From Chitinophagaceae bacterium (GTDB lineage Bacteria > Bacteroidota > Bacteroidia > Chitinophagales > Chitinophagaceae): a stretch of DNA of 64,000 nucleotides. Below, in pieces: positions 53,684 through 62,813 of the stretch (positions within the stretch are counted from its first letter, which is position 1; each line of letters begins with the position of its first letter). Under the pieces are notes generated by a model, which saw only the letters and a program-made list of their open reading frames with translations, had not been told where the DNA came from and did not search any database. The stretch lies in the NCBI GenBank assembly GCA_947450165.1, contig CANFUJ010000001.1, forward strand, positions 5,600-69,599. The letters run 5' to 3'. Made by a program: the position numbers and the translations under genes.

Positions 53684-54712
53684 TCAATTTACATTTTTAA
53701 TAAATTTCACTAATCCTGTAAAATAAGTCTGTTGGTCATCATAAAAACAACAATGACTACCATTTGTACAGAGTAAAAATTCTCCATTGGGTATTTGTTT
53801 ACTCATCCATTCCATATAATTGGGGTCCATTGTGTCAAAGGTTGCACCAATTACAAGTGTTGGAACTTTTATGTTTTTTAATTCCTTGCTAATGTCCCAA
53901 TTCGCCAATTTTCCCGAAACGCCAAATTCACTTGGTCCTTGCATGTTGACATAGAGTTCGTTATTTAACTTTCCGAACATTCTGTTGATGGGTTCTGGCC
54001 ATTCTGCTAACCGTAAAACGTGTTTTGCATAAAAATTAGGCAATAACAATTCCATGTATTTTGGATTTTGGAAATCGCCTTTTTTCTCTATTTCTCGTAC
54101 CGTATCTAAAACAGCAGGAGGCATTTGTTTTGCTAAAACTTCATTTGCGTATTTTCCATATTCAGGGCAGCTTGCCATCATGTTAGAAATAACTAACCCT
54201 TTAATATTGTCTTGATATTTAAGGGCATATTGCATGGCAAGAATGCCACCCCAGGAATGTCCATACAAGAAGAAATTACTTTTATCCAAATTCAACGCTT
54301 TACGAACTTGTTCTACTTCTTCAACATATCGTGGCAGGTCATACAAAGACGTGTCTTTTGGATTGTCTGAATTGCCACAAGCAAGTTGGTCGTAATAGAT
54401 AAATTCTATGCCTTCTTTTGGTAAAAAACTTTCAAAACATTCGTAACCATCGTGTGATCCGCCTGGTCCACCGTGCAAAATTAAAACTTTCATGGATGGG
54501 TTATTTCCAATACGCTTAGTCCACACATTAAACGTTCCTTTTGGCGTGGTGATGGGAATAACTTTAATTCCTCCTGTTTGTACACCACTGTCTAAGTTTG
54601 AAAAGTATGATGATGCTTTTTCTGATGAAGCGTTATCATTTTTGTTTGTACAAGAATGAAGTGTTAACAATGCTGTCAACGAAAGGAATAAGTAAAAAAT
54701 ATTTTTTTTCAT
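53684..54712 (-). CDS. Proline iminopeptidase-family hydrolase, lipoprotein
   Basis: Lipobox LHSC; LHGGPGG, YDQL..G.SD, GHSWGG, TFDTM, GSH. Confidence 0.9.
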   Translation of the reverse strand: MKKNIFYLFLSLTALLTLHSCTNKNDNASSEKASSYFSNLDSGVQTGGIKVIPITTPKGTFNVWTKRIGNNPSMKVLILHGGPGGSHDGYECFESFLPKEGIEFIYYDQLACGNSDNPKDTSLYDLPRYVEEVEQVRKALNLDKSNFFLYGHSWGGILAMQYALKYQDNIKGLVISNMMASCPEYGKYANEVLAKQMPPAVLDTVREIEKKGDFQNPKYMELLLPNFYAKHVLRLAEWPEPINRMFGKLNNELYVNMQGPSEFGVSGKLANWDISKELKNIKVPTLVIGATFDTMDPNYMEWMSKQIPNGEFLLCTNGSHCCFYDDQQTYFTGLVKFIKNVN

Positions 54713-54749: not shown

Positions 54750-54845
54750 ATAAGGTTGCAACAAACGATTTGTGTGCATGTAATCGTAACCCTGTGTTAC
54801 ATCTTCTGCAAGGTTATAGCACTTGCAAGCTGGTATAGGCTGCCA
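54750..54845 (-). other. Degenerate attC-like site ending the cassette array
   Basis: After the stop: GCAGCCTATACCAGC...TGCTATAACC. CTATAAC is complementary to this cassette's GTTATAG start, but R' is unclear. Confidence 0.4.
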
Positions 54846-54849
54846 TATT

Positions 54850-55341
54850 TTATCCTACTACATTTATACAATCAATGTTTGGATTGTATTGAATTTCCAA
54901 ATCATTGTTTTTCCATTTAGCTTTACAACTTTTCAATCTGTCACTTCCACCTTGGTTATAATAATAGCTAAGAAAATTTTCAATTAAATCTTCTACTAGC
55001 ACTATTTCTCCATCTTTTATGTCTTTGGGAATAACATATGCTGCCTCTTTCGGAAATTCAAATTTGTAATATTCATAGGTCCAATCCTGAACAACTTCAA
55101 AATCTTCCGAATAACCTCTTTCATCTCTGAAGTCGTATATTTTGAATTTCTTTCCAGACTTTTTATTTTTCATTATGCAGTATTTGCCTTTCACAGTTGA
55201 AAATGGCTCAACATTTTTGAAAATCAGATTAGCCCCTTTGGCTATTGCATTATCAATACTTTTTTGACCACGTAATGTCTCAATCTTTCTAAGATTATCA
55301 ATTCCGCTTTTCTTGCTTTTCCAAAAATTCCAAAATGCCAT
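54850..55341 (-). CDS. Hypothetical protein (cassette 4, ORF b)
   Basis: 163-aa ORF; starts 1 nt after the upstream stop. Confidence 0.6.
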   Translation of the reverse strand: MAFWNFWKSKKSGIDNLRKIETLRGQKSIDNAIAKGANLIFKNVEPFSTVKGKYCIMKNKKSGKKFKIYDFRDERGYSEDFEVVQDWTYEYYKFEFPKEAAYVIPKDIKDGEIVLVEDLIENFLSYYYNQGGSDRLKSCKAKWKNNDLEIQYNPNIDCINVVG

Positions 55342-55342
55342 A

Positions 55343-55585
55343 TCAGATTCTTTTTGCGTTAATTTTTAAACAAGTTTCTGGTCTCTTATTCAATAGAAAC
55401 ACAACCTCATCATCAGATAAAAATTCAATATTCAGAACAGATTTATTGCAATGGATACAATTCCTCTCAATGTCATTCTTTCCCGGCATTATATTCCCCC
55501 ATTCAACATCTCTTGGACATTGCATTTTCTTGACAAATTCTCCTTTGTCTGTATAAAGCTCTTTTGTGTCAACTTTGTATTGCAT
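55343..55585 (-). CDS. Small Cys-containing hypothetical protein (cassette 4, ORF a)
   Basis: 80 aa; QCP..W..M..RNCIHC..C; starts about 20 nt after a GTT core. Confidence 0.6.
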   Translation of the reverse strand: MQYKVDTKELYTDKGEFVKKMQCPRDVEWGNIMPGKNDIERNCIHCNKSVLNIEFLSDDEVVFLLNKRPETCLKINAKRI

Positions 55586-55604
55586 TTAGCTTTTGTCTTT
55601 TGTT

Positions 55605-55742
55605 TAACTATAACTGTTCGCAGCTAACCGAAGGGAGGTAGTTTTACTGCAAAGCCTGATTTCAAAAACTAATGTTTGATTAATCACAAAACTGTCTTTG
55701 TAATTCAAAACCTTGCCTTTTGGGTAGGTGCTGTTATAGCCA
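55605..55742 (-). other. attC-like site (long type)
   Basis: Minus strand: GGCTATAAC-AGCACCTACCCAAAAGG...CCTTCGGTTAGCTGCGAACA-GTTATAG; imperfect inverted repeat right after the gene. Confidence 0.75.
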
Positions 55743-55768
55743 GTATATTTATAATTCATGTCTTCCAC

Positions 55769-56281
55769 TTACTTTAATAGCAGGAATAATAACAGAAAAA
55801 TTACAATTCCTAAAATTAGATATAATACAATTTTATTATTGGACCCTTTTTCATATCTTGAATAAATGTGATTTAAAAAAATATCTATTGTTGGTTCCTC
55901 CTCAAAATTGCCATGATTTAAATGTGTTCCTAATTCTGGAGTGGAACCAATCATATATCTATCATTGCCATTTTCTGATGGGTTTGATTTTTCAAGTGTA
56001 TAGTATTTCGTAATTTTTCTTTTAAAATCAAAGAACAATAAACCAAATTTAGCTTCTGTCATTTTTAATGGTTCAGGAAAAATGTACATCCCTACAGATT
56101 TTGTTTTTGAAAGAATTTTATGCTCAATTATCAAATCATCAGAACTAAAATCATTTTCTTCTTTACTTAGGATTTCTTTTATAAATATTTCATCTAACAA
56201 TTTAACTTGTTTGATTTTGCCTTTTTTGAATTCATCTATTAAGTAAGGGATTAACCTGTATGCAAGATCGTAACGTCTCAT
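55769..56281 (-). CDS. Hypothetical protein with C-terminal TM helix (cassette 3)
   Basis: 170 aa, bounded by attC-like sites. Confidence 0.65.
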   Translation of the reverse strand: MRRYDLAYRLIPYLIDEFKKGKIKQVKLLDEIFIKEILSKEENDFSSDDLIIEHKILSKTKSVGMYIFPEPLKMTEAKFGLLFFDFKRKITKYYTLEKSNPSENGNDRYMIGSTPELGTHLNHGNFEEEPTIDIFLNHIYSRYEKGSNNKIVLYLILGIVIFLLLFLLLK

Positions 56282-56302
56282 TTTATATCATTTTGTGTAT
56301 AT

Positions 56303-56384
56303 TAACTATAACGGTTTGCGTGTAAGCGATGTGCCTTGTGTTGCGCCCAGGCAAGGCAATATTGCTTACACGTTGTTAGTTGTA
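56303..56384 (-). other. attC-like site
   Basis: Minus strand: TACAACTAAC-AACGTGTAAGC-AATATTGCCTTGCC...GGCACATC-GCTTACACGC-AAACC-GTTATAG. Confidence 0.85.
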
Positions 56385-56385
56385 G

Positions 56386-57132
56386 TTATTTCTTGTAGCA
56401 TATTATTTTATCAGCGTGTTTAATTTTCAATTCGTTAAGTGGTCGTGTTACATTTAAATTATCTTTTTTCAATATGATTCCATTTTTTGTGTTGAAAAGA
56501 ATCCATTCTTCACCATACGAAAATTGATTTACTTCATTCGTAATCAGTCCGTATATATAGTCAAGAAAATTTTGAAAGGCAGGAAATATGTTTGTTTTTA
56601 TTGAGATTCTTGAATAAGGCAAGGATAAAAATCCATCAAAATATATTGTTATGATATTCATCTCATTGTACCAAATATTGTCTTCTTTTGGAATAAATTC
56701 AATTAGCTTTTCATCGTATTCAACATCGAGTATTGAATGCCATTCTAAAAGACAATCACTATTAGATTCTAGGCCATATTTTGTATTACTAAAAGCATTT
56801 CGTATTTCACCCGTCAAATGATATGCTTGTAATCGTTTTTTCAAAATAGGTTTAATTGAATCATCTACAAATGAAGGTCTACAATTAAGCCACCAACTTA
56901 TATAGTCTCTTTTGCACGAAACATTTCTTTTAGGAAACTCAATCAAATTGATTACATCTTGTAAATCGTTATGCCAATCGTCTGACCAATATAATGGATT
57001 ATATCCCTCGCTTATTGAATAACAAATTTGTTCTATGTCTTGGTCGTCATATGGGAATAAGTTTTTTGTTATAAAAACACTCGAAGAATCCGAGGTTTGA
57101 ATAATTAAAAGTTCATTTTCTTTTCTTTTCAT
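56386..57132 (-). CDS. Hypothetical protein (cassette 2)
   Basis: 248 aa; the stop abuts attC and the start lies 14 nt after the previous core. Confidence 0.7.
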   Translation of the reverse strand: MKRKENELLIIQTSDSSSVFITKNLFPYDDQDIEQICYSISEGYNPLYWSDDWHNDLQDVINLIEFPKRNVSCKRDYISWWLNCRPSFVDDSIKPILKKRLQAYHLTGEIRNAFSNTKYGLESNSDCLLEWHSILDVEYDEKLIEFIPKEDNIWYNEMNIITIYFDGFLSLPYSRISIKTNIFPAFQNFLDYIYGLITNEVNQFSYGEEWILFNTKNGIILKKDNLNVTRPLNELKIKHADKIICYKK

Positions 57133-57145
57133 CGTGATTTATAAT

Positions 57146-57229
57146 TACAACTAACGTTTTGCGTGTAGGCGATGTTGCCTTGTGTTGCGCCTGCGGCAAG
57201 GCAATATTGCTTACACGCTGTTATGAGTA
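57146..57229 (-). other. attC-like site
   Basis: Minus strand: TACTCATAAC-AGCGTGTAAGC-AATATTGCCTTGCC...GGCAACATC-GCCTACACGC-AAAAC-GTTAGTTG; near-identical to the 56303 site. Confidence 0.85.
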
Positions 57230-57235
57230 GGTAGA

Positions 57236-57685
57236 TTAGAATTCATTATTCAAGATTGGTAAACAATTATTTTGATTTAAATAATGTCGTAATGAAATTG
57301 ATTCAATGTATGCGGGTGGGTTGTTTAGATTTGAATAAATTACCAAAAATATTAATGAATCGAATGTGTTCTCGGTCATGACATTCTGGAAATATAAATA
57401 GCTATTATTATAAGTTCCTCTTGGTGCTTTAAGGCGTCCATTAAGATTTTGATTTTTAAATGTACCATCATTTTGAATTGTTCCACCTTTACCAATATAC
57501 AATATCTGATGATTGTCTGAATTGCATATTGCATAAATACCATAATTCATTTGAACATGAAGGTTGATTAAATTGTCATAGTATTGTTTACCATCATTTG
57601 CATTCATATTGGCTAATTGAATAGTAAATTGATTACTTCCATTAGCCAAAGGGGTTGTCAGGTTTAAAAGCTCATTTATTGTCAT
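57236..57685 (-). CDS. GIY-YIG-like nuclease (cassette 1)
   Basis: YGIYAI..ILYIGKGG..LNGRL..IES. Confidence 0.7.
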   Translation of the reverse strand: MTINELLNLTTPLANGSNQFTIQLANMNANDGKQYYDNLINLHVQMNYGIYAICNSDNHQILYIGKGGTIQNDGTFKNQNLNGRLKAPRGTYNNSYLYFQNVMTENTFDSLIFLVIYSNLNNPPAYIESISLRHYLNQNNCLPILNNEF

Positions 57686-57705
57686 ATATTTGTTACTTTA
57701 TTACT

Positions 57706-57740
57706 TACTCATAACTCGCTTATACCCGAAATTTCCATCG
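57706..57740 (-). other. Leading GTT core (attI-like or truncated attC)
   Basis: ...GGGTATAAGCGA-GTTATGAGTA; the last 10 nt are the exact complement of cassette 1 R'' (TACTCATAAC). Confidence 0.5.
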
Positions 57741-57763
57741 TCTATCCATCCAATAATAGTTCT

Positions 57764-57854
57764 CTAAGCGAGATCCCCTCCCCCAAATATAATAAATTCC
57801 CCCTCTCATTACGCTTCCGTAACACAGCAATTGATAAACGTGTATTTTTTAAAC
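57764..57854 (-). promoter_or_regulatory. Repeat copy 2; candidate Pc-like promoter for the cassette array
   Basis: TTATTATATTTG (TAnnTTTG) on the minus strand, about 70 nt upstream of the first cassette core. Confidence 0.5.
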
Positions 57855-58039
57855 CCATATTTTGCAGCTGAAATCTATTAAAAGAAAAAAATGCTTCTAA
57901 TACAAGCGTTTGCATGATTTTTTGATCTTATCATATGTCAATATGTTCGCGACCAAAAAATCGGCTCAACCTTTATTGCCTTTTTTCTTTTCATCACGAT
58001 TCCAACTGCAAAATCCGGGTTATTCAAAACCGAAAAACA

Positions 58040-59266
58040 CTAACTATACATCCCCATAATCGTACTCATCTCCTTCTTCACCTTCGAACCCGTTATTTTC
58101 GCATATTCTTGAGTATGTTTAATCGTACTATGGCCAAGCATCTTACTCACGGTTTCGAGAGAGATACCATTGCTTAAAGTAATGGTGGTAGCAAAAGTGT
58201 GACGACCCAAGTGCATAAATATTTTCCTATCAATATTCGCCAGCAATGCAACCTCTTTCAACTTACCATTAAGCTTAGAGTTGTATGGAACCTTCCAGCG
58301 GAAATTTCTAAAATCAGCGTCTATGGAATATTTCAATAAGATTTTTTCAGCGGTTGGTAACAACGGTATCAAACTCATGATTTCCGTTTTGTAACGAGCT
58401 TTATGAATAAACTTGCTTCCATCCTGGTCGATGTTGATATGTCCTTTCTTGAGTTCTTTGATATCCGAATAAGCCAGACCGGTATAGCAAGCAAATAAAA
58501 ATAAATCACGGGCGAGTTCTAAATCTGGTTTTAGATCGGACACCTTCTCCATTTGTTCTAATTCTTCTATGGAAAGATATTCTCTGTTCACTGGCTTTCT
58601 TTTAAAATGAATCGAATCAAAAGGGTTCTTTTGGATTACACCCGATTCAATGGCTATTTTTAAAACAGTTCTTAGCACACTTAATAAAGAGGTAACCGAG
58701 TTTTGACCATTCTGTTTTTCTTTACGCAGAAAGTTGCTGAATTTGTTGATGAAGTCTACATCAATTCCACTAACGGGATAGTTTTTAAAATTCCTACTGC
58801 TCATCAGAAACTCTTCAAGATATCGTTTAACTCTTTTGTACTTATAAAAAGTAGTACCCTGCATATCAATATCAACGGACTCTTCCAGCTCTTTTATTTT
58901 TATATCCATGTATTCCATCACGGACTGGGGTGCTGGTTCTTTCCCTTTGATACAATCGATAAGCTCGTTGACGCTAAATGGTTTTTTACTTTCCTTTAGT
59001 TCACGGTAGCGCTCTTTGGATTTTTCTCTGATGAGTACCAGTTCTTCATTGATAGCAATGGCCTCATCATTAACTGGGTCAACCATGTTTTTTTCCGAGA
59101 TCCAGTAATCAGCATGGCAAGAAAGACCTGTTACGATGTCTTTTCTGGTTTTGTGATAATTTACCCGCATTACAATAGGATGTTCTCCATTTTCATAGGC
59201 AAATGTTCTTCTAAGATGGAAATGGATGCTGAATTCAGCCGATTCCATTAGATTGTTTCTTCTCAT
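58040..59266 (-). CDS. Tyrosine integrase (Bacteroidota ICE/mobilizable-transposon type: Arm-binding + SAM-like + catalytic)
   Basis: RDLFLFACYTGLAYSDI, RYKT, HLGRHTFAT, MLGH, TQEYA. Confidence 0.95.
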   Translation of the reverse strand: MRRNNLMESAEFSIHFHLRRTFAYENGEHPIVMRVNYHKTRKDIVTGLSCHADYWISEKNMVDPVNDEAIAINEELVLIREKSKERYRELKESKKPFSVNELIDCIKGKEPAPQSVMEYMDIKIKELEESVDIDMQGTTFYKYKRVKRYLEEFLMSSRNFKNYPVSGIDVDFINKFSNFLRKEKQNGQNSVTSLLSVLRTVLKIAIESGVIQKNPFDSIHFKRKPVNREYLSIEELEQMEKVSDLKPDLELARDLFLFACYTGLAYSDIKELKKGHINIDQDGSKFIHKARYKTEIMSLIPLLPTAEKILLKYSIDADFRNFRWKVPYNSKLNGKLKEVALLANIDRKIFMHLGRHTFATTITLSNGISLETVSKMLGHSTIKHTQEYAKITGSKVKKEMSTIMGMYS

Positions 59267-59454
59267 TTTATAAAATTTAAGGTTTAAAAGTGCATAAAAT
59301 TTCGTTTCGATTTTGGTGCAAAACGAAGCAATTCAATGCGTAAAAAACGAGAAAGAAGAAGTGTGAGTTACGTGATTTTCTGTTGCAAGTATGTTGCCAA
59401 ATTAGGGCAACATTGAGGCGACTTATGCACGTATATGCATTTTAAAAATGTAAA

Positions 59455-59495
59455 AAGGCCTGAAAAACAGCTATTTGCACGTTTTTGCAGGCCTT
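59455..59495. terminator. Hairpin next to the att site
   Basis: aaggcctg-aaaaac...gttttt-g-caggcctt. Confidence 0.55.
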
Positions 59496-59496
59496 C

Positions 59497-59524
59497 TGGT
59501 GGTGTGGGCCGTCAATGGACCGGC
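59497..59524 (-). other. Degenerate tRNA 3' end (T-arm + acceptor strand + CCA); candidate att junction
   Basis: Minus strand: GCCGG-TCCATTG-ACGGC-CCACACC-A-CCA, the exact 5-7-5/7/1/3 tRNA geometry, with a mutated T-loop and one stem mismatch. Confidence 0.6.
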
Positions 59525-59631
59525 AATAATAAAACAATATAATACAATGCTTTTCAAGTAGTTATAATTATTTTTAAGAAAATAATACCATAAAATTAGA
59601 GTACAATGTACTCTATTCGGTATATTTGAGT

Positions 59632-61155
59632 ATGAGTTTATATTTTTCACTTCACAAAAGAGGAGGAGTTAATCATTCAAAAAACTCCGAGATTCCTATA
59701 AGGTTAAACTACTATTATAAAGGTCATAAAATAGGGTTCTCAACCGATGTCTCTGTTAAACAAAAGGATTGGAATGAGGGTGATTCTAATAATCCCGTCA
59801 AAACAACTGATGAAAACCATGTATCTAAAAACAGTACTTTAAGAGGATTAAAAAGAGATGTAGAGAAAGAGATAGATTTAATTCGTGTCGGTGAAAAAGA
59901 ACCCTTAACCAAAACGGTTAAAGATAGATTTTCAAATAGGAAATTAAGAGAAGTAAAAGAGGTTAATTACGAATATCCGGTAGTTGAGGTTTTTCGGAAA
60001 TACTTAAAGGATGTTATTGAAAATAGTACCAATCAATTTTCAATTAATCATGTACGTTCATATAGAAGTACATCTAAACACATATTTACTATTCTGAAAA
60101 ATATATTTGATGATAGGTTGTATTTTGACCAGATAGATGGGGATGTAATGAATGAATTCATCAGTTATGGGATAAGAAAAAAACTATCTAATTCCACAAT
60201 TCAAAAATTCATCGGACACTTCAGAACATTTTTTAACTGGAGTAAAGAAAAGGGGTATCATAATAATGTATCAGTAAAATTTTATAGTAAGAAAATAAAA
60301 GATGATTTATCTGAAAAAGATGTTGTTTACCTGTATAGAAACGAAGTGAAAAAATTATTTGAATTGGATGAAATTAACTATTCTAATCCTGAACATAAAA
60401 AACATAGTACTGAATACTTAGTTGATTTTCTTAAAGACAATGAAAAAAGAATTTATACCAATCTTGAATTTTGTCGTGATTTACTTTTGTTTGAATGTGG
60501 GTTAGGAACTCGTTATGGTGATACAATAAAACTAAAGGTGGAACACTTTGATTTTACTCGGAAAGAGTTCAAAATATATATGGAAAAAACCAATAGAACT
60601 GTTCGTGTTCCCATTAATGAAATGACCGATAAAATTTTTAGAAAGTACTCAAAGGATAAAACTAAAGATGATTATATTTTCCCAAAGACACTAAATGGGA
60701 ATTTTTATCCAAATCAAAAATTCAATAATCACATTAAGTTAATTGGAGAATTGTGTAATCTCAATAGATTGATTCATCGTCCATTGAGAAGTGGAAAAAA
60801 CATCATTGGAGATACGGATAAATCAAAACGACTATATGAAGTAATATCATCCCATGTAGGAAGAAGAACTTTTATAAAGGAAGGGATTATCAATAAAATT
60901 GAACCTTATGTGATAATGTCTATGGTTGGACATAGGTCTTTAAGAGTTTTTGAAAGATACTTCAGTATGAATGATGAGGACAGAAAAGTTTCATCTACAT
61001 TGTTTGGTTTTGTATCAGAAAACCCTAAGGTCCAAACATCTCAAAATATCGATGTTAGAAATAGATTAATAGAAATTAAAAGTCTCTTTGATGAAGGATT
61101 GATTGATGAGGATGTTTATAAAGAAAAGGAGAAAGAGATTTTGAAACTATTATAG
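59632..61155 (+). CDS. Tyrosine integrase with C-terminal SHOCT-like tail; no alanine
   Basis: RDLLLFECGLGTRYGD, MEKT, SSHVGRRTF, VGH, FERY; tail RLIEIKSLFDEGLIDEDVYKEKEKEIL. Confidence 0.92.
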   Translation: MSLYFSLHKRGGVNHSKNSEIPIRLNYYYKGHKIGFSTDVSVKQKDWNEGDSNNPVKTTDENHVSKNSTLRGLKRDVEKEIDLIRVGEKEPLTKTVKDRFSNRKLREVKEVNYEYPVVEVFRKYLKDVIENSTNQFSINHVRSYRSTSKHIFTILKNIFDDRLYFDQIDGDVMNEFISYGIRKKLSNSTIQKFIGHFRTFFNWSKEKGYHNNVSVKFYSKKIKDDLSEKDVVYLYRNEVKKLFELDEINYSNPEHKKHSTEYLVDFLKDNEKRIYTNLEFCRDLLLFECGLGTRYGDTIKLKVEHFDFTRKEFKIYMEKTNRTVRVPINEMTDKIFRKYSKDKTKDDYIFPKTLNGNFYPNQKFNNHIKLIGELCNLNRLIHRPLRSGKNIIGDTDKSKRLYEVISSHVGRRTFIKEGIINKIEPYVIMSMVGHRSLRVFERYFSMNDEDRKVSSTLFGFVSENPKVQTSQNIDVRNRLIEIKSLFDEGLIDEDVYKEKEKEILKLL

Positions 61156-61253
61156 TTTACTAATTACAAAATGAGTTTTTTATCAATGTTTTCAATTAAA
61201 TTATTATTTTTAAATTGTAATAAAATTTCGAATTTATTTCTATTGAATCACCA

Positions 61254-61748
61254 ATGTTAAAAAAGTCTTTATTTATGAAATATATAATTATCTTTTTTTT
61301 AATTGTTTCTCCAATTATAACTTTTGGTCAATTGAAATATGTCGATTTGGTTTTTATATATAAATCAAATACCGAAAATTGTGACATTTACCTTTCAAAG
61401 AAAAAATTTCAATTTTTTAAAAAAGAAGACAATTCTACTACATGGTCAGAAGAAAGAAATGAAATAAATGATAGGGCTGTCAGATTTATTGCCAAATATT
61501 GTCCTGAAAGAAACTGTGGTTTTTGGTACCAAACAGGAAATCAAAGGGAATACAACTCAATAAAAAATGAATTTAAAAGTAATGGATATAAATTAATTTA
61601 TGATCCATCAGACAAGGAGTATGAAAATAAATTTGGGGGAATACAATCAACTTATTCCAATGGAGTTAACAAAGCCCAATTCACCTCATCTTTAAGTGAT
61701 GATAATCGAAACATTTATACAATATCAATGTCTAGTAGAATAAACTAA
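61254..61748 (+). CDS. Secreted hypothetical protein
   Basis: Signal-peptide-like MKYIIIFFLIVSPIITFGQ. Confidence 0.6.
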   Translation: MLKKSLFMKYIIIFFLIVSPIITFGQLKYVDLVFIYKSNTENCDIYLSKKKFQFFKKEDNSTTWSEERNEINDRAVRFIAKYCPERNCGFWYQTGNQREYNSIKNEFKSNGYKLIYDPSDKEYENKFGGIQSTYSNGVNKAQFTSSLSDDNRNIYTISMSSRIN

Positions 61749-61765
61749 TTTATTCAAATAATGTT

Positions 61766-62335
61766 TCACATCAACTCATCAAAACTCTGATAAATATCCT
61801 TAATCTCTTCTTTGGATATTCCTAAATATGTTCTCGTTATTGAGGTTGAACTGTGGTTTAGTATAGAGGAGAGTTTAATCAGATACTCGTCAGAATGACC
61901 ATTGTTTTCCCAAATAAAACGACTTCCACTTTTACGGAGTGAGTGTGTCGAGATATGTTTGTTTTTGATTCTTTCATTTTTCCCACCCTCCTTTAATAGT
62001 AGGTTGGTATGTTGAAGAGTATATCTGAACATAAAACCATCTTTATTAGTAGTTTTTAGTTCATTGAAGGTGTTTTCTATAGATTCTCTCAATGACCTAC
62101 CAATAGTTATTTCCCTCCTTTTATTCGTTTTCTGTTCGTTTAGAACCAAAACATCTTTTCCCAATACATCAACCCATTTGATACGACTTAAATCAGAAAA
62201 ACGGAGTAATGTTTTCACACCGAACTCAATCAATAAACTCATTGAATAGTTTTTCTCTTTACGGAAGTAACGAGATAATCTCAATATCTCATCAGTAGTT
62301 AAATAATCAGAGGTTTTGTAGTTTGTTGTTGTCAT
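61766..62335 (-). CDS. Small tyrosine recombinase/resolvase (catalytic domain only); no alanine
   Basis: LLRFSDL, EQKTNKRR, THSLRKS, LNHSS, TRTYLG. Confidence 0.9.
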   Translation of the reverse strand: MTTTNYKTSDYLTTDEILRLSRYFRKEKNYSMSLLIEFGVKTLLRFSDLSRIKWVDVLGKDVLVLNEQKTNKRREITIGRSLRESIENTFNELKTTNKDGFMFRYTLQHTNLLLKEGGKNERIKNKHISTHSLRKSGSRFIWENNGHSDEYLIKLSSILNHSSTSITRTYLGISKEEIKDIYQSFDELM

Positions 62336-62813
62336 TTTAAATTCACTTTTATTTGATACCACGAATGTATCAGGATGTTCATTAGTAGCAAAATATTCTC
62401 ATAAAAGAATATCAAAAAAGTTAAAGAATTTATATCGTGTTGAAAGTCAATGACTCCTGATTTTATATTCGTTATTGATATAAACGAATATTTTCTTTTT
62501 GTAAAAAAAGTTGGTAAAAAGTGTTCGTTTGGGTTTTGAATCTTATATATATAGTTGGAAGTGGTGGTAGAATACTTCTAAAATATAAACTACTAAACTT
62601 TCAGTAAACTCTGATTGGATCGTGTAAAGTAAATCCCATCGGTTAACCTCAATCTTTGTAAGTTTCTAGTGATGTTAATACCCCCAGTTGAATTATTAAT
62701 CGTTCGGTCGGTATATGCAATAGGATACATTAATTCAAAATAAACTTACTGAGGGGGTGATAATACCTCTGAAGATTATTAATAAAACCAATACTTATAA
62801 TAAAACAACCACT

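What the first reader, a model, noticed from the sequence alone, without database searches (positions are those of the whole stretch)
54750..57860. Integron-like gene-cassette array with attC sites and no recognisable intI
Seen: four minus-strand units, each ORF set followed by an imperfect inverted repeat running TAAC...GTT. Each cassette's own 5' end complements its own R'': GTTATGAGTA/TACTCATAAC (10/10), GTTAGTTGTA/TACAACTAAC (10/10), GTTATAG/CTATAAC (7/7). This is the pattern expected for cassettes that circularise and integrate at G|TT (established integron biology). Two attC sites are near-identical, one is a longer type and one is decayed. Cargo includes a GIY-YIG nuclease. Inference: a CALIN-type array served by an intI elsewhere, or captured by the island. 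The only recombinase next to it is a co-oriented ICE-type integrase, so a non-IntI recombinase could be involved.
Basis: partly seen in the sequence, partly recalled or inferred. Interest (0 to 1): 0.75.

Follow-up and report, generated by a model that had tools for sequence, protein, structure and literature searches.

The report
Integron-like cassette array, non-IntI type
This stretch is a real array of four mobile gene cassettes separated by folded-DNA recombination sites, and it belongs to a large, apparently undescribed integron-like system of freshwater Bacteroidota whose recombinase lacks the domain that defines integron integrases.

Summary
Window 54756-57730 holds four minus-strand cassettes. 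Each ends in an imperfect-palindrome site bounded by TAAC...GTTA. At the upstream end is a fifth site (d), which is an attI-like junction and not a decayed attC.

Each cassette's 5' end is the reverse complement of the box before its own hairpin. The same rule holds for 60 of 107 hairpin copies in other genomes.

The b/c hairpin is nearly identical in more than 119 loci of many freshwater Bacteroidota families, and similarity stops exactly at TAAC and GTTA. Lake metagenomes carry the window's first cassette joined to other hairpins, with the break at ..CTCATAAC|. They also carry other cassette combinations.

No canonical IntI was found in the window or in about 200 related loci. Complete arrays are instead headed by a recombinase related to IntI and archaeal XerA. 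It has 16 residues where VchIntIA has 60, so the I2 region is missing. A conserved junction, TATAAAyrA|GTTA, follows it; site d matches.

The window has no such recombinase, so its array is CALIN-like. The neighbouring ICE-type integrase is probably unrelated, and the GIY-YIG call is unsupported. I found no published description. Interest is high.

The parts
57705..57730 (-). Site d, the attI-like junction at the upstream end of the array. Read on the minus strand it is ...CGGGTATAAGCGA|GTTATGAGTAA. Only the GTTA... half behaves like a cassette box; there is no hairpin of the b/c or long type.
   Evidence: It matches the conserved junction (C)ATATAAAyrA|GTTA-NNN-GCAA found 60-140 nt after the stop of the IntI/XerA-like recombinase in at least 33 of 69 loci. 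It also matches L206 (GGGGTATAAGTAA|GTTATGTGG) and L111, L052, L028, L054, L070 and L080. Metagenome contigs carrying the first cassette diverge exactly after 57715/57716.
57155..57714 (-). Cassette 1: ORF 57685-57236 (149 aa, function unknown) plus its site c.
   Evidence: The 5' end TTATGAGTAAG is complementary to its own R'' CTACTCATAAC. The same cassette, 96-98% identical, lies in metagenomes X5 and X7 behind other hairpins, and is absent from X1. A 54% homologue carries the same boxes in L210-L214.
57145..57230 (-). Site c: an intact attC-like hairpin of the canonical 75-nt family (TAAC 57152-57155, GTTA 57220-57223).
   Evidence: nhmmer 93 bits. The + strand folds at -21.9 kcal/mol against -15.6 for the - strand. 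With its own 5' end restored the values are -30.5 (z -8.7) against -19.1. Depth is 1217x in X1 against about 8x for the flanks.
56312..57154 (-). Cassette 2: ORF 57132-56386 (248 aa, function unknown) plus its site b.
   Evidence: The 5' end TTAGTTGTAA matches its own R'' CTACAACTAAC. It is present at 100% identity in X1 and X6 contigs that break at the hairpins.
56302..56385 (-). Site b: a slightly diverged copy of the canonical hairpin (TAAC 56309-56312, GTTA 56375-56378).
   Evidence: nhmmer 70.7 bits. Fold -20.7 against -17.3 kcal/mol. The restored form gives -25.3 against -20.5.
55614..56311 (-). Cassette 3: ORF 56281-55769 (170 aa, C-terminal hydrophobic segment, function unknown) plus its site a.
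   Evidence: The 5' end TTATAGTTAA matches its own R'' GGCTATAAC over 7/7.
55604..55743 (-). Site a: a long-type (about 126 nt) attC-like site, somewhat degenerate (TAAC 55611-55614, GTTA 55733-55736).
   Evidence: It is about 80% like the commonest long family, TAACAGCACCTACCCAAAAGGCGGGG...GGGTAGCTGCAAAACGTTA. The same type occurs in L028, L054 and L070. Depth is 366x in X1. Fold is -18.9 (+) against -13.8 (-) kcal/mol.
54766..55613 (-). Cassette 4: two ORFs, 55585-55343 (80 aa) and 55341-54850 (163 aa), plus decayed site e.
   Evidence: The same two-gene cassette (71-72% aa identity) occurs in L054 and L036. There it is followed by an intact canonical hairpin and has the same box triplet (GTTATAGG/CCTATAAC). 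In L054 it is the second cassette of an array headed by the recombinase.
54756..54842 (-). Site e: a decayed copy of the canonical hairpin, the last site of the array, abutting the upstream region of the proline iminopeptidase gene (53684-54712).
   Evidence: nhmmer 22.5 bits, E 3.8e-5, model positions 4-85. It no longer folds better than shuffles. A variant of its loop is present in X1 (joint 54798->54839).

Best explanation
Window 54756-57730 is a recombinase-less (CALIN-like) array of four mobile gene cassettes. It belongs to an integron-like system that is widespread in freshwater Bacteroidota.

A cassette is one or a few co-oriented ORFs followed within about 10 nt by an imperfect-palindrome site. 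On the coding strand the site reads [GC-NNN-TAAC]-A-stem...stem-(RRAAC)-[GTTA-NNN-GC].

Crossover is at G|TT of the 3' box. A cassette therefore carries TTA-NNN-GC at its 5' end. When it is excised as a circle, this end rejoins its own site and pairs with the 5' box, giving a 9-15 bp R box.

In complete elements the array starts at an attI-like junction (TATAAAyrA|GTTA) 60-140 nt downstream of a co-oriented tyrosine recombinase. This enzyme is related to IntI and archaeal XerA but lacks the IntI-specific I2 insertion.

In the window that gene is missing. The array keeps the attI-like end (d). Its sites decay with distance from d: c is intact, b is slightly diverged, a is degenerate and e is decayed. 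The array can therefore move cassettes only if the recombinase is supplied from elsewhere in the genome.

Shown here: the anatomy of the sites, their sharp boundaries, the box rule, independent occurrence of the cassettes, the junction positions, the linkage of recombinase to attI-like site to array, and the absence of I2.

Inferred: that this recombinase catalyses the reaction, that the substrate is the folded strand complementary to the ORFs, that circular intermediates exist, and that the enzyme is supplied in trans here.
For: - Site family: the exact 20-mer of b/c occurs in more than 119 loci of Crocinitomicaceae, Chitinophagaceae, Flavobacteriales, Saprospiraceae and others. Similarity ends exactly at TAAC and GTTA, while the loop varies.
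- Polarity: 92 of 105 hairpins have a co-oriented ORF ending a median of 8.5 nt away.
- Box rule: 60 of 107 copies have the reverse complement of their box 0.35-6.3 kb upstream, most within 2 kb. Perfect chains run over 3-4 cassettes in L149 and L206.
- Strict geometry (TAAC + 1 nt + stem ... stem + 5 nt + GTT): 176 sites on the array strand, against 10 on the opposite strand and 11 in shuffles.
- Covariation: 28 stem families with unrelated sequences keep their pairing. Mismatches are A.C/C.A 44 against G.T/T.G 11 on the coding strand, so the complementary strand pairs better. For c the fold is -21.9 against -15.6 kcal/mol, and -30.5 against -19.1 with the R box restored.
- Mobility of the window's own cassettes: ORF149 sits behind other hairpins in X5 and X7, with the break at 57715/57716. 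X1 has cassettes 2 and 4 but not cassette 1. The o80+o163 cassette is in L054 and L036.
- Recombinase: it sits next to the attI-like end in L111, L052, L028, L054, L070, L080, L100 and L053, and the attI-like junction follows it in at least 33 of 69 loci fetched by the protein itself.
- The identical recombinase lies in conserved chromosomal contexts with different downstream cassettes, such as ParDE, Fic, an abhydrolase and secreted proteins.
- Recombinase class: NF040815 scores about 226 bits (cut-off 220). TIGR02249 scores about 210 bits, below its cut-off of 265, in two pieces. Against VchIntIA 2A3V, 16 residues replace 60.
- There is no such gene and no IntI in the 64-kb window.
Against: - No experiment and no read-level evidence of circles or empty sites; Logan contigs only show alternative junctions.
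- The source genome outside the window could not be searched, so a canonical intI elsewhere is not excluded.
- Strand bias is not universal. By minimum free energy the complementary strand is more stable in 29 clusters and the coding strand in 14, out of 55.
- A homologous cassette has the same boxes but a different hairpin class. A single crossover point at R' does not explain this.
- The window's boxes (GTAA/TTAA) deviate from the GCAA consensus. Three of its four sites are diverged, so the array may be a fossil.
- IntegronFinder's attC model could not be run, so these sites may already be scored as attC by existing tools.
Confidence: 0.8

Rival explanations
1. It is an ordinary integron CALIN. 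The sites are classical attC sites, and a canonical IntI (with the I2 domain) encoded elsewhere in the genome moves the cassettes.
For: The AAC/GTT boxes, the G|TT junctions, the ORF-then-site polarity, the variable loop and TA cassettes such as ParDE are all classical integron traits. The rest of the source genome is unseen.
Against: None of the roughly 200 fetched loci shows a canonical IntI. Every recombinase next to an attI-like end is the I2-less type. The sites have a 4-5 nt bulge on the arm opposite to where classical extrahelical bases lie (my recollection of MacDonald 2006 and Bouvier 2009), and they have no single-base bulges in the L box. IntegronFinder 2.0 found almost no integrons in Bacteroidetes (PMC9024848).
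Confidence: 0.1
2. The same elements and the same recombinase are involved, but the enzyme works Xer-like on duplex DNA, with a classical two-strand exchange as in dif/IMEX or pdif modules. The hairpin would be incidental, or a binding platform.
For: The recombinase lacks the I2 helix, which is held to have enabled single-strand recombination (PMC7790495 abstract). Its best structural relatives are XerA enzymes that act on duplex dif. The attI-like junction resembles a duplex core.
Against: Stems covary across 28 unrelated families while geometry is fixed, which points to selection on pairing rather than on sequence. The R''/5'-end complementarity is maintained in each cassette. Mismatches are biased 4:1 so that one strand folds better. 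Sites are directly oriented, 48-180 nt palindromes, not alternating 28-bp dif-like sites.
Confidence: 0.12
3. The co-oriented Arm-DNA-bind_5 (ICE/CTnDOT-type) integrase at 58040-59266 is the cassette recombinase of this array.
For: It lies 310 nt from site d, on the same strand. Related integrases (about 30% identity) lie near attI-like ends in L044 and L061, and beside the recombinase in L173.
Against: It is absent from nearly all other arrays, and its orientation differs between loci. A 172-nt MITE-like insertion separates it from d in the window but not in X1. Arm-domain tyrosine recombinases are markers of ICE and phage integration (PMC8138268). TIGR02249 scores 33.6 bits against a cut-off of 265.
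Confidence: 0.04
4. The cassettes are not mobile. The hairpins are REP-like repeats or terminators that spread on their own, and the complementary flanks are chance.
For: A single 10/10 match is not rare in an AT-rich 64-kb window: 3 observed against 1.8 expected. The hairpins are very high-copy in metagenomes.
Against: The matches sit exactly at hairpin ends, and the rule repeats in 60 of 107 copies elsewhere. The same ORF, boxes and hairpin occur next to different neighbours, with breaks exactly at TAAC|. There are no target-site duplications, no T-run after the hairpin and no Rfam family.
Confidence: 0.01

Closest known systems
Integrons (sedentary chromosomal integrons, and CALIN arrays as defined by IntegronFinder)
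   Same: - A tyrosine recombinase gene is followed by an attI-like junction and an array of co-oriented, mostly single-ORF cassettes.
- Each cassette ends in an imperfect palindrome with AAC...GTT boxes and a variable loop.
- Crossover is at G|TT.
- The cassette's 5' end is complementary to its own R''.
- Site families are homogeneous within lineages.
- Cargo includes TA, RM and defence-type genes.
- Downstream content varies behind a conserved recombinase.
- From memory, the attI-like core ..ATATAAACAAG|TTAGG.. resembles the class 1 attI1 core ..CTAAAACAAAG|TTAGGC.
   Different: - The recombinase lacks the IntI-specific insertion (I2 helix region): 16 aa where VchIntIA has 60.
- It scores below the integron-integrase cut-off.
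- It is transcribed in the same direction as the cassettes in most loci.
- The sites have a 4-5 nt bulge next to the R box, on the arm opposite the classical extrahelical bases, and A.C mismatches instead of single extrahelical bases.
- One 75-nt site is nearly invariant across several families of Bacteroidota, a phylum in which IntegronFinder reported almost no integrons.
Archaeal XerA / bacterial XerCD with dif, and Xer-dependent modules (IMEX, Acinetobacter pdif modules)
   Same: The recombinase architecture is Xer-like (SAM-like N domain plus catalytic domain, no arm-binding domain, no I2). Its best solved relatives are XerA 5HXY and 4A8E. Gene modules are bounded by recombination sites.
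   Different: Xer sites are 28-bp duplex cores and pdif modules are flanked by inverted sites. Here the sites are direct, 48-180 nt structured palindromes with covarying stems. Arrays start at a dedicated junction next to the recombinase. The same recombinase occurs in two different chromosomal contexts, so it is not the housekeeping dimer-resolution system.
'Integron-like subgroup' of simple tyrosine recombinases (Smyshlyaev et al. 2021, PMC8138268)
   Same: [quoted passage not shown] The present recombinases probably fall there.
   Different: In the text I read, no recombination sites, cassettes or function were assigned to the insertion-less members.

Membership tests
Integron (sensu IntI + attI + attC cassettes) | An IntI tyrosine recombinase carrying the IntI-specific additional domain around patch III (I2 helix), stated to be necessary for integron recombination (Messier & Roy 2001, as cited in PMC9668308) | tested here: not met
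   The window has no IntI. In related complete arrays the recombinase matches TIGR02249 in two pieces at about 210 bits, below the cut-off of 265. It aligns to VchIntIA 4-185 and 246-318, with 16 residues in place of 60.
Integron (sensu IntI + attI + attC cassettes) | An attI insertion site next to the integrase gene, at the head of the array | tested here: met
   A conserved junction TATAAAyrA|GTTA-NNN-GCAA lies 60-140 nt after the recombinase stop in at least 33 of 69 loci. The first cassette's R'' matches it in L149, L164, L156, L128, L138 and L206. Window site d fits the junction but has no recombinase beside it.
Integron (sensu IntI + attI + attC cassettes) | attC sites: imperfect inverted repeats with R''(..AAC)/R'(GTT..) and L''/L' boxes and a variable terminal structure, with recombination at G|TT | tested here: met
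   Boundaries at TAAC/GTTA in more than 119 copies. Loop variants are present. The junction is pinned to 57715/57716. The box rule holds in 60 of 107 copies.
Integron (sensu IntI + attI + attC cassettes) | A folded bottom strand with two or three single extrahelical bases on the R''-L'' arm and an unpaired central spacer (classical geometry, recalled from MacDonald 2006 and Bouvier 2009) | tested here: not met
   The folds show a 4-5 nt bulge (GKTTT) on the 5' arm of the strand complementary to the ORFs, 0-1 nt opposite it, and three G.T wobbles instead of bulged bases. This spacer geometry (1 nt versus 5 nt) is conserved across site families.
Integron (sensu IntI + attI + attC cassettes) | Hits to the IntegronFinder attC covariance model | not testable with these tools
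   The model is not available here. Rfam has no matching family.
[quoted passage not shown] | Two or more attC sites in an array with no integron integrase nearby | tested here: met
   There are four attC-like sites plus an attI-like end, and no IntI or IntI-like gene in 64 kb. This counts only if the sites are accepted as attC.
Xer/dif modules (IMEX, pdif) | 28-bp dif-like cores with XerC and XerD arms; modules flanked by inversely oriented sites | tested here: not met
   Sites are 48-180 nt and all in one orientation: 176 on one strand against 10 on the other. Stems covary.
REP/BIME or MITE-type repeats | Self-contained repeat inserted with target-site duplication or a conserved GTAG-type head; flanks are continuous host sequence | tested here: not met
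   There are no direct repeats at the hairpin flanks. The flanks belong to exchangeable cassettes.

The most novel reading that the evidence does not exclude
Freshwater and other Bacteroidota carry a large, so far undescribed class of integron-like platforms. An IntI-related recombinase without the I2 helix captures and shuffles cassettes through structured hairpin sites, using a bulge-and-wobble geometry instead of extrahelical bases. This would be either a surviving pre-I2 stage of integron evolution or an independent solution to single-strand, structure-specific recombination. The window's array is a recombinase-less offshoot of it.
Probability: 0.55. Interest if true: 0.9.

Novelty: new variant of a known kind. 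Interest (0 to 1): 0.8.

Why it matters
Integrons are defined by IntI and its extra domain, and acquisition of the I2 helix is held to be the step that allowed recombination of folded single strands (PMC7790495, PMC4792948). A natural, abundant system with integron architecture, structured sites and G|TT junctions but an I2-less recombinase makes that evolutionary question directly testable.

It would also extend cassette-based gene exchange to Bacteroidota, a phylum reported as nearly integron-free (PMC9024848; bioRxiv 2024.07.02.601686).

It would explain why contigs of freshwater Bacteroidota MAGs break at these loci. It would also give a new handle, a nearly invariant 75-nt site, for cassette-targeted PCR and for mining accessory, defence and TA genes in lakes and rivers.

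For this window specifically, it shows that the 3-kb stretch next to a roughly 45-kb defence island is exchangeable cargo and not core genome.

Tried and rejected
- Exact-protein look-ups of the window integrase and the 248-aa ORF found nothing on record.
- Rfam search of the region gave only chance miRNA-type hits.
- No tRNA gene lies in the window as an integration target.
- tblastn of eight IntI/XerA-like recombinases against the window found only weak hits to the three known integrases.
- Pfam, NCBIfam and PADLOC on the five cargo ORFs gave nothing, even at E<=10.
- The AlphaFold model of ORF149 (pLDDT 92) has no significant PDB match under Foldseek. The weak PD-T4-3 endonuclease hits at E 0.4-0.8 are not evidence.
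- A first automated chain-walker was too strict and returned only 14 sites. I replaced it with a fixed-geometry scan with strand and shuffle controls.
- Candidates defined by end motifs alone contained many false positives. Their pairing was bimodal, and I used only the well-paired mode.
- The ORF6N gene upstream of the recombinase is not a general component: 2 of 74 loci.
- The hairpin is not phage-borne: 0 hits in IMG/VR.
- Seven literature searches and seven papers read gave no description of such arrays in Bacteroidota.
- Considered and rejected: terminators (no T-run), MITEs with target-site duplications, IS200/IS605-type ends (no HUH transposase), and pdif-type modules.

Full report
**What is in the window**

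Between the proline iminopeptidase gene (53684-54712, minus strand; TIGR01250) and an Arm-DNA-bind_5 type integrase (58040-59266, minus strand) lie five minus-strand ORFs: 149, 248, 170, 80 and 163 aa. None has a Pfam, NCBIfam or PADLOC match, even at permissive thresholds.

The ORFs are separated by imperfect palindromes that start with TAAC and end with GTTA on the + strand:
- c: 57145-57230
- b: 56302-56385
- a: 55604-55743
- e: 54756-54842, which I recognised only with a profile (nhmmer 22.5 bits, E 4e-5, full length)

A fifth site, d (57705-57730), has only the TAAC half.

Sites b and c share an exact 23-mer.

Two caveats apply. The symmetry cannot give orientation. A bare 10/10 match is also not rare in this AT-rich window: 3 observed against 1.8 expected. 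The weight comes from position and replication.

**The hairpin is a sharply bounded, widespread element**

The 20-mer GGCAAGGCAATATTGCTTAC occurs in more than 119 loci of the species-representative genome collection. Almost all are freshwater Bacteroidota MAGs of several families. It occurs in no IMG/VR viral contig.

Aligned copies are nearly identical from TAAC to GTTA and unrelated outside. The loop comes in several variants.

In 92 of 105 copies an ORF on the strand opposite to the displayed hairpin ends a median of 8.5 nt from the GTTA side. The unit is therefore an ORF followed by its site.

Right-hand flanks (the ORF) recur with the hairpin, while left-hand flanks differ. This places the exchange point at the TAAC side of the + strand, which is G|TT at the 3' end of the site on the coding strand.

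**The cassette rule is general**

In 60 of 107 copies the box GTTA-NNN-GC.. has its reverse complement (..GC-N'N'N'-TAAC) 0.35-6.3 kb further on, most within 2 kb. Independent two-copy loci (L109, L039, L040, L045) show 9-10 bp of perfect complementarity.

A fixed-geometry definition on the coding strand (TAAC, 1 nt, at least 9/10 stem..., stem, 5 nt, GTT) finds 176 sites on the array strand. It finds 10 on the opposite strand and 11 in shuffled sequence. The sites fall into two size classes, about 70 nt and about 125 nt. Site a belongs to the commonest long family.

**The window's own cassettes are mobile**

In lake and river metagenomes the hairpins are high-copy (c: 1217x in X1 against about 8x for the flanks; a: 366x). 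Contigs diverge exactly at 57152 and at 57222-57224.

Cassette 1 (ORF149) occurs at 96-98% identity in X5 and X7. It matches up to 57715/57716 (..CTCATAAC|) and then runs into other hairpins instead of d.

X1 carries the iminopeptidase gene (pip), site e and cassette 4, and also cassette 2, but not cassette 1.

The two-gene cassette 4 recurs at 71-72% aa identity in L054 and L036 with an intact canonical hairpin and the same box triplet.

A 54% homologue of ORF149 keeps the same boxes and leader in L210-L214.

Gene order is therefore not fixed, and the junction is where an integron model predicts it.

**Which recombinase**

No IntI is present in the window.

In the hairpin-derived loci, eight carry a tyrosine recombinase of one family at the upstream end of the array. 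It passes NF040815 ('site-specific tyrosine recombinase/integron integrase', about 226 bits, cut-off 220). It matches the integron-integrase model TIGR02249 only in two pieces (about 210 bits, cut-off 265).

Against solved structures it is closest to archaeal XerA. It aligns to VchIntIA residues 4-185 and 246-318, with 16 residues in place of 60. The I2 region is therefore absent.

I then searched from the protein side. This gave 550 relatives in metagenomes, of which 80 loci were kept. At least 33 of 69 loci with enough sequence show a conserved junction, (C)ATATAAAyrA|GTTA-NNN-GCAA, 60-140 nt after the stop codon. It is often preceded by a short palindrome.

From that junction the box rule leads to the first site, and on through three or four cassettes, in L149 and L206.

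The identical recombinase protein lies behind the same housekeeping genes in several samples, but with different downstream genes: ParDE, Fic, an abhydrolase and secreted proteins. Many contigs end a few hundred bases after it.

Window site d, read on the minus strand, is CGGGTATAAGCGA|GTTATGAGTAA. It matches this junction (L206: GGGGTATAAGTAA|GTTATGTGG). So d is the attI-like head of the array, and the recombinase gene is missing here.

**Structure and strand**

The + strand, complementary to the ORFs, folds better than the coding strand:
- c: -21.9 against -15.6 kcal/mol
- b: -20.7 against -17.3
- a: -18.9 against -13.8

With each cassette's own 5' end restored, as in a circle, site c gives -30.5 kcal/mol (z -8.7). 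It forms a 15-bp R box, a 4-nt bulge and a 23-bp stem, against -19.1 for the coding strand.

The difference is due to three conserved G.T wobbles, which are A.C mismatches on the other strand.

Across 28 stem families with unrelated sequences, pairing is kept. The mismatches are A.C/C.A 44 against G.T/T.G 11 on the coding strand. By minimum free energy the bias is less uniform: 29 clusters against 14, out of 55.

I take this as moderate evidence that the folded strand complementary to the ORFs is the substrate, as in integrons. The geometry differs, however. There is a 4-5 nt bulge beside the R box, on the arm opposite to where classical extrahelical bases lie (that comparison rests on my memory of MacDonald 2006 and Bouvier 2009).

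**Comparison with what is known**

The system works like an integron. It fails the defining membership test, which is the IntI additional domain, said to be necessary for integron recombination (PMC9668308 citing Messier & Roy 2001).

IntegronFinder 2.0 reported only In0 and one complete integron (Salinibacter) in Bacteroidetes (PMC9024848). A 2024 preprint lists Bacteroidota among clades found without integrons.

Smyshlyaev et al. noted an 'integron-like subgroup' of recombinases in which the insertion is not fully conserved, without assigning sites or cassettes (PMC8138268).

Seven full-text searches found no description of these arrays. This is absence of evidence in the held library, not proof of novelty.

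**The neighbouring integrase and the surroundings**

The 58040 integrase is of the ICE/CTnDOT type. Relatives about 30% identical lie near three other arrays, in different orientations. In the window a 172-nt MITE-like insertion, absent from X1, separates it from d. I consider it unrelated to cassette movement (probability about 0.04).

The array sits at the end of a roughly 45-kb defence and conflict island.

**Verdict**

The integron-like reading is right in mechanism, but the system is not an integron sensu stricto. The window's array is a recombinase-less member with a decay gradient away from the attI-like end (c 93 bits, b 71 bits, a about 80% identical to the long-family consensus, e 22 bits). 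The broader family it reveals is the interesting result.

Noticed in passing
window 57854-58025: A 172-nt segment bounded by inverted repeats (57852-57875 / 57998-58021) is missing from a lake-metagenome contig that otherwise matches. It has 30-90x depth in other runs against about 5x for the flanks. It looks like a MITE-like insertion between site d and the integrase.
   Followed up: partly
window ~4000-49400: One long defence/conflict island: HipA kinase, SF1 helicases, a two-component ADP-ribosyltransferase/glycohydrolase protein, a radical SAM enzyme, a reverse transcriptase, an Hsp70-like protein with TPR, a UvrD-like helicase, PrimPol, ExoVII large subunit, MazG, a Schlafen-type helicase, HNH, HIT, two C5 cytosine methylases and an AAA_5 (McrB-like) protein.
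   Followed up: partly
window 58040-62362: Three tyrosine recombinase genes lie in a row beside the array. Two are of the Arm-DNA-bind_5 type, in opposite orientations. The third is a short 198-aa catalytic-domain-only protein, followed by small HTH-like ORFs. This suggests stacked integrative elements. No tRNA gene is in the window.
   Followed up: partly
L210-L214 (ORF at L210:169-621) versus window 57155-57714: A 54% identical homologue of ORF149 keeps the same cassette boxes and leader but is followed by a long-type hairpin instead of the short canonical one. A single crossover at R' does not explain such a hairpin swap. X1 contigs with a hairpin directly followed by another hairpin may be related.
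   Followed up: no
L122, L136, L153, L149 and others; left flanks of many hairpins in L001-L119: A conserved motif TAAAAGACGAC(A) lies 10-20 nt after the GTTA-NNN-GCAA box, at the 5' end of many cassettes and after the attI-like junction. It could be part of the site, a leader or an accessory-protein site. It is only weakly present in the window (after site a).
   Followed up: no
L052, L200-L209 (e.g. L206:7840-8352): An ORF6N-domain (PF10543) gene sits 7 nt upstream of the recombinase in one sublineage. It is found in only 2 of 74 metagenome loci, so it is not a general component.
   Followed up: yes
L007, L009, L012, L013, L056, L063; L003: Complete hairpins occur on short contigs binned as Sphingomonadales, Staskawiczbacteria, Clostridiaceae, Chlorobium sp. 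KB01 and Comamonadaceae. This is either mis-binning or transfer. The isolate Flavobacterium aurantiibacter TH167 also carries one and could serve as a culturable host.
   Followed up: no
window 57236-57685 (ORF149): This is a small protein family of 22 homologues, all annotated hypothetical. Invariant residues follow the pattern G49, Y51, Y63, G65, K66, R84, R89, E128 and N146. The model is confident (pLDDT 92) but no solved fold matches it, so it may be a divergent GIY-YIG-like or a new fold.
   Followed up: partly
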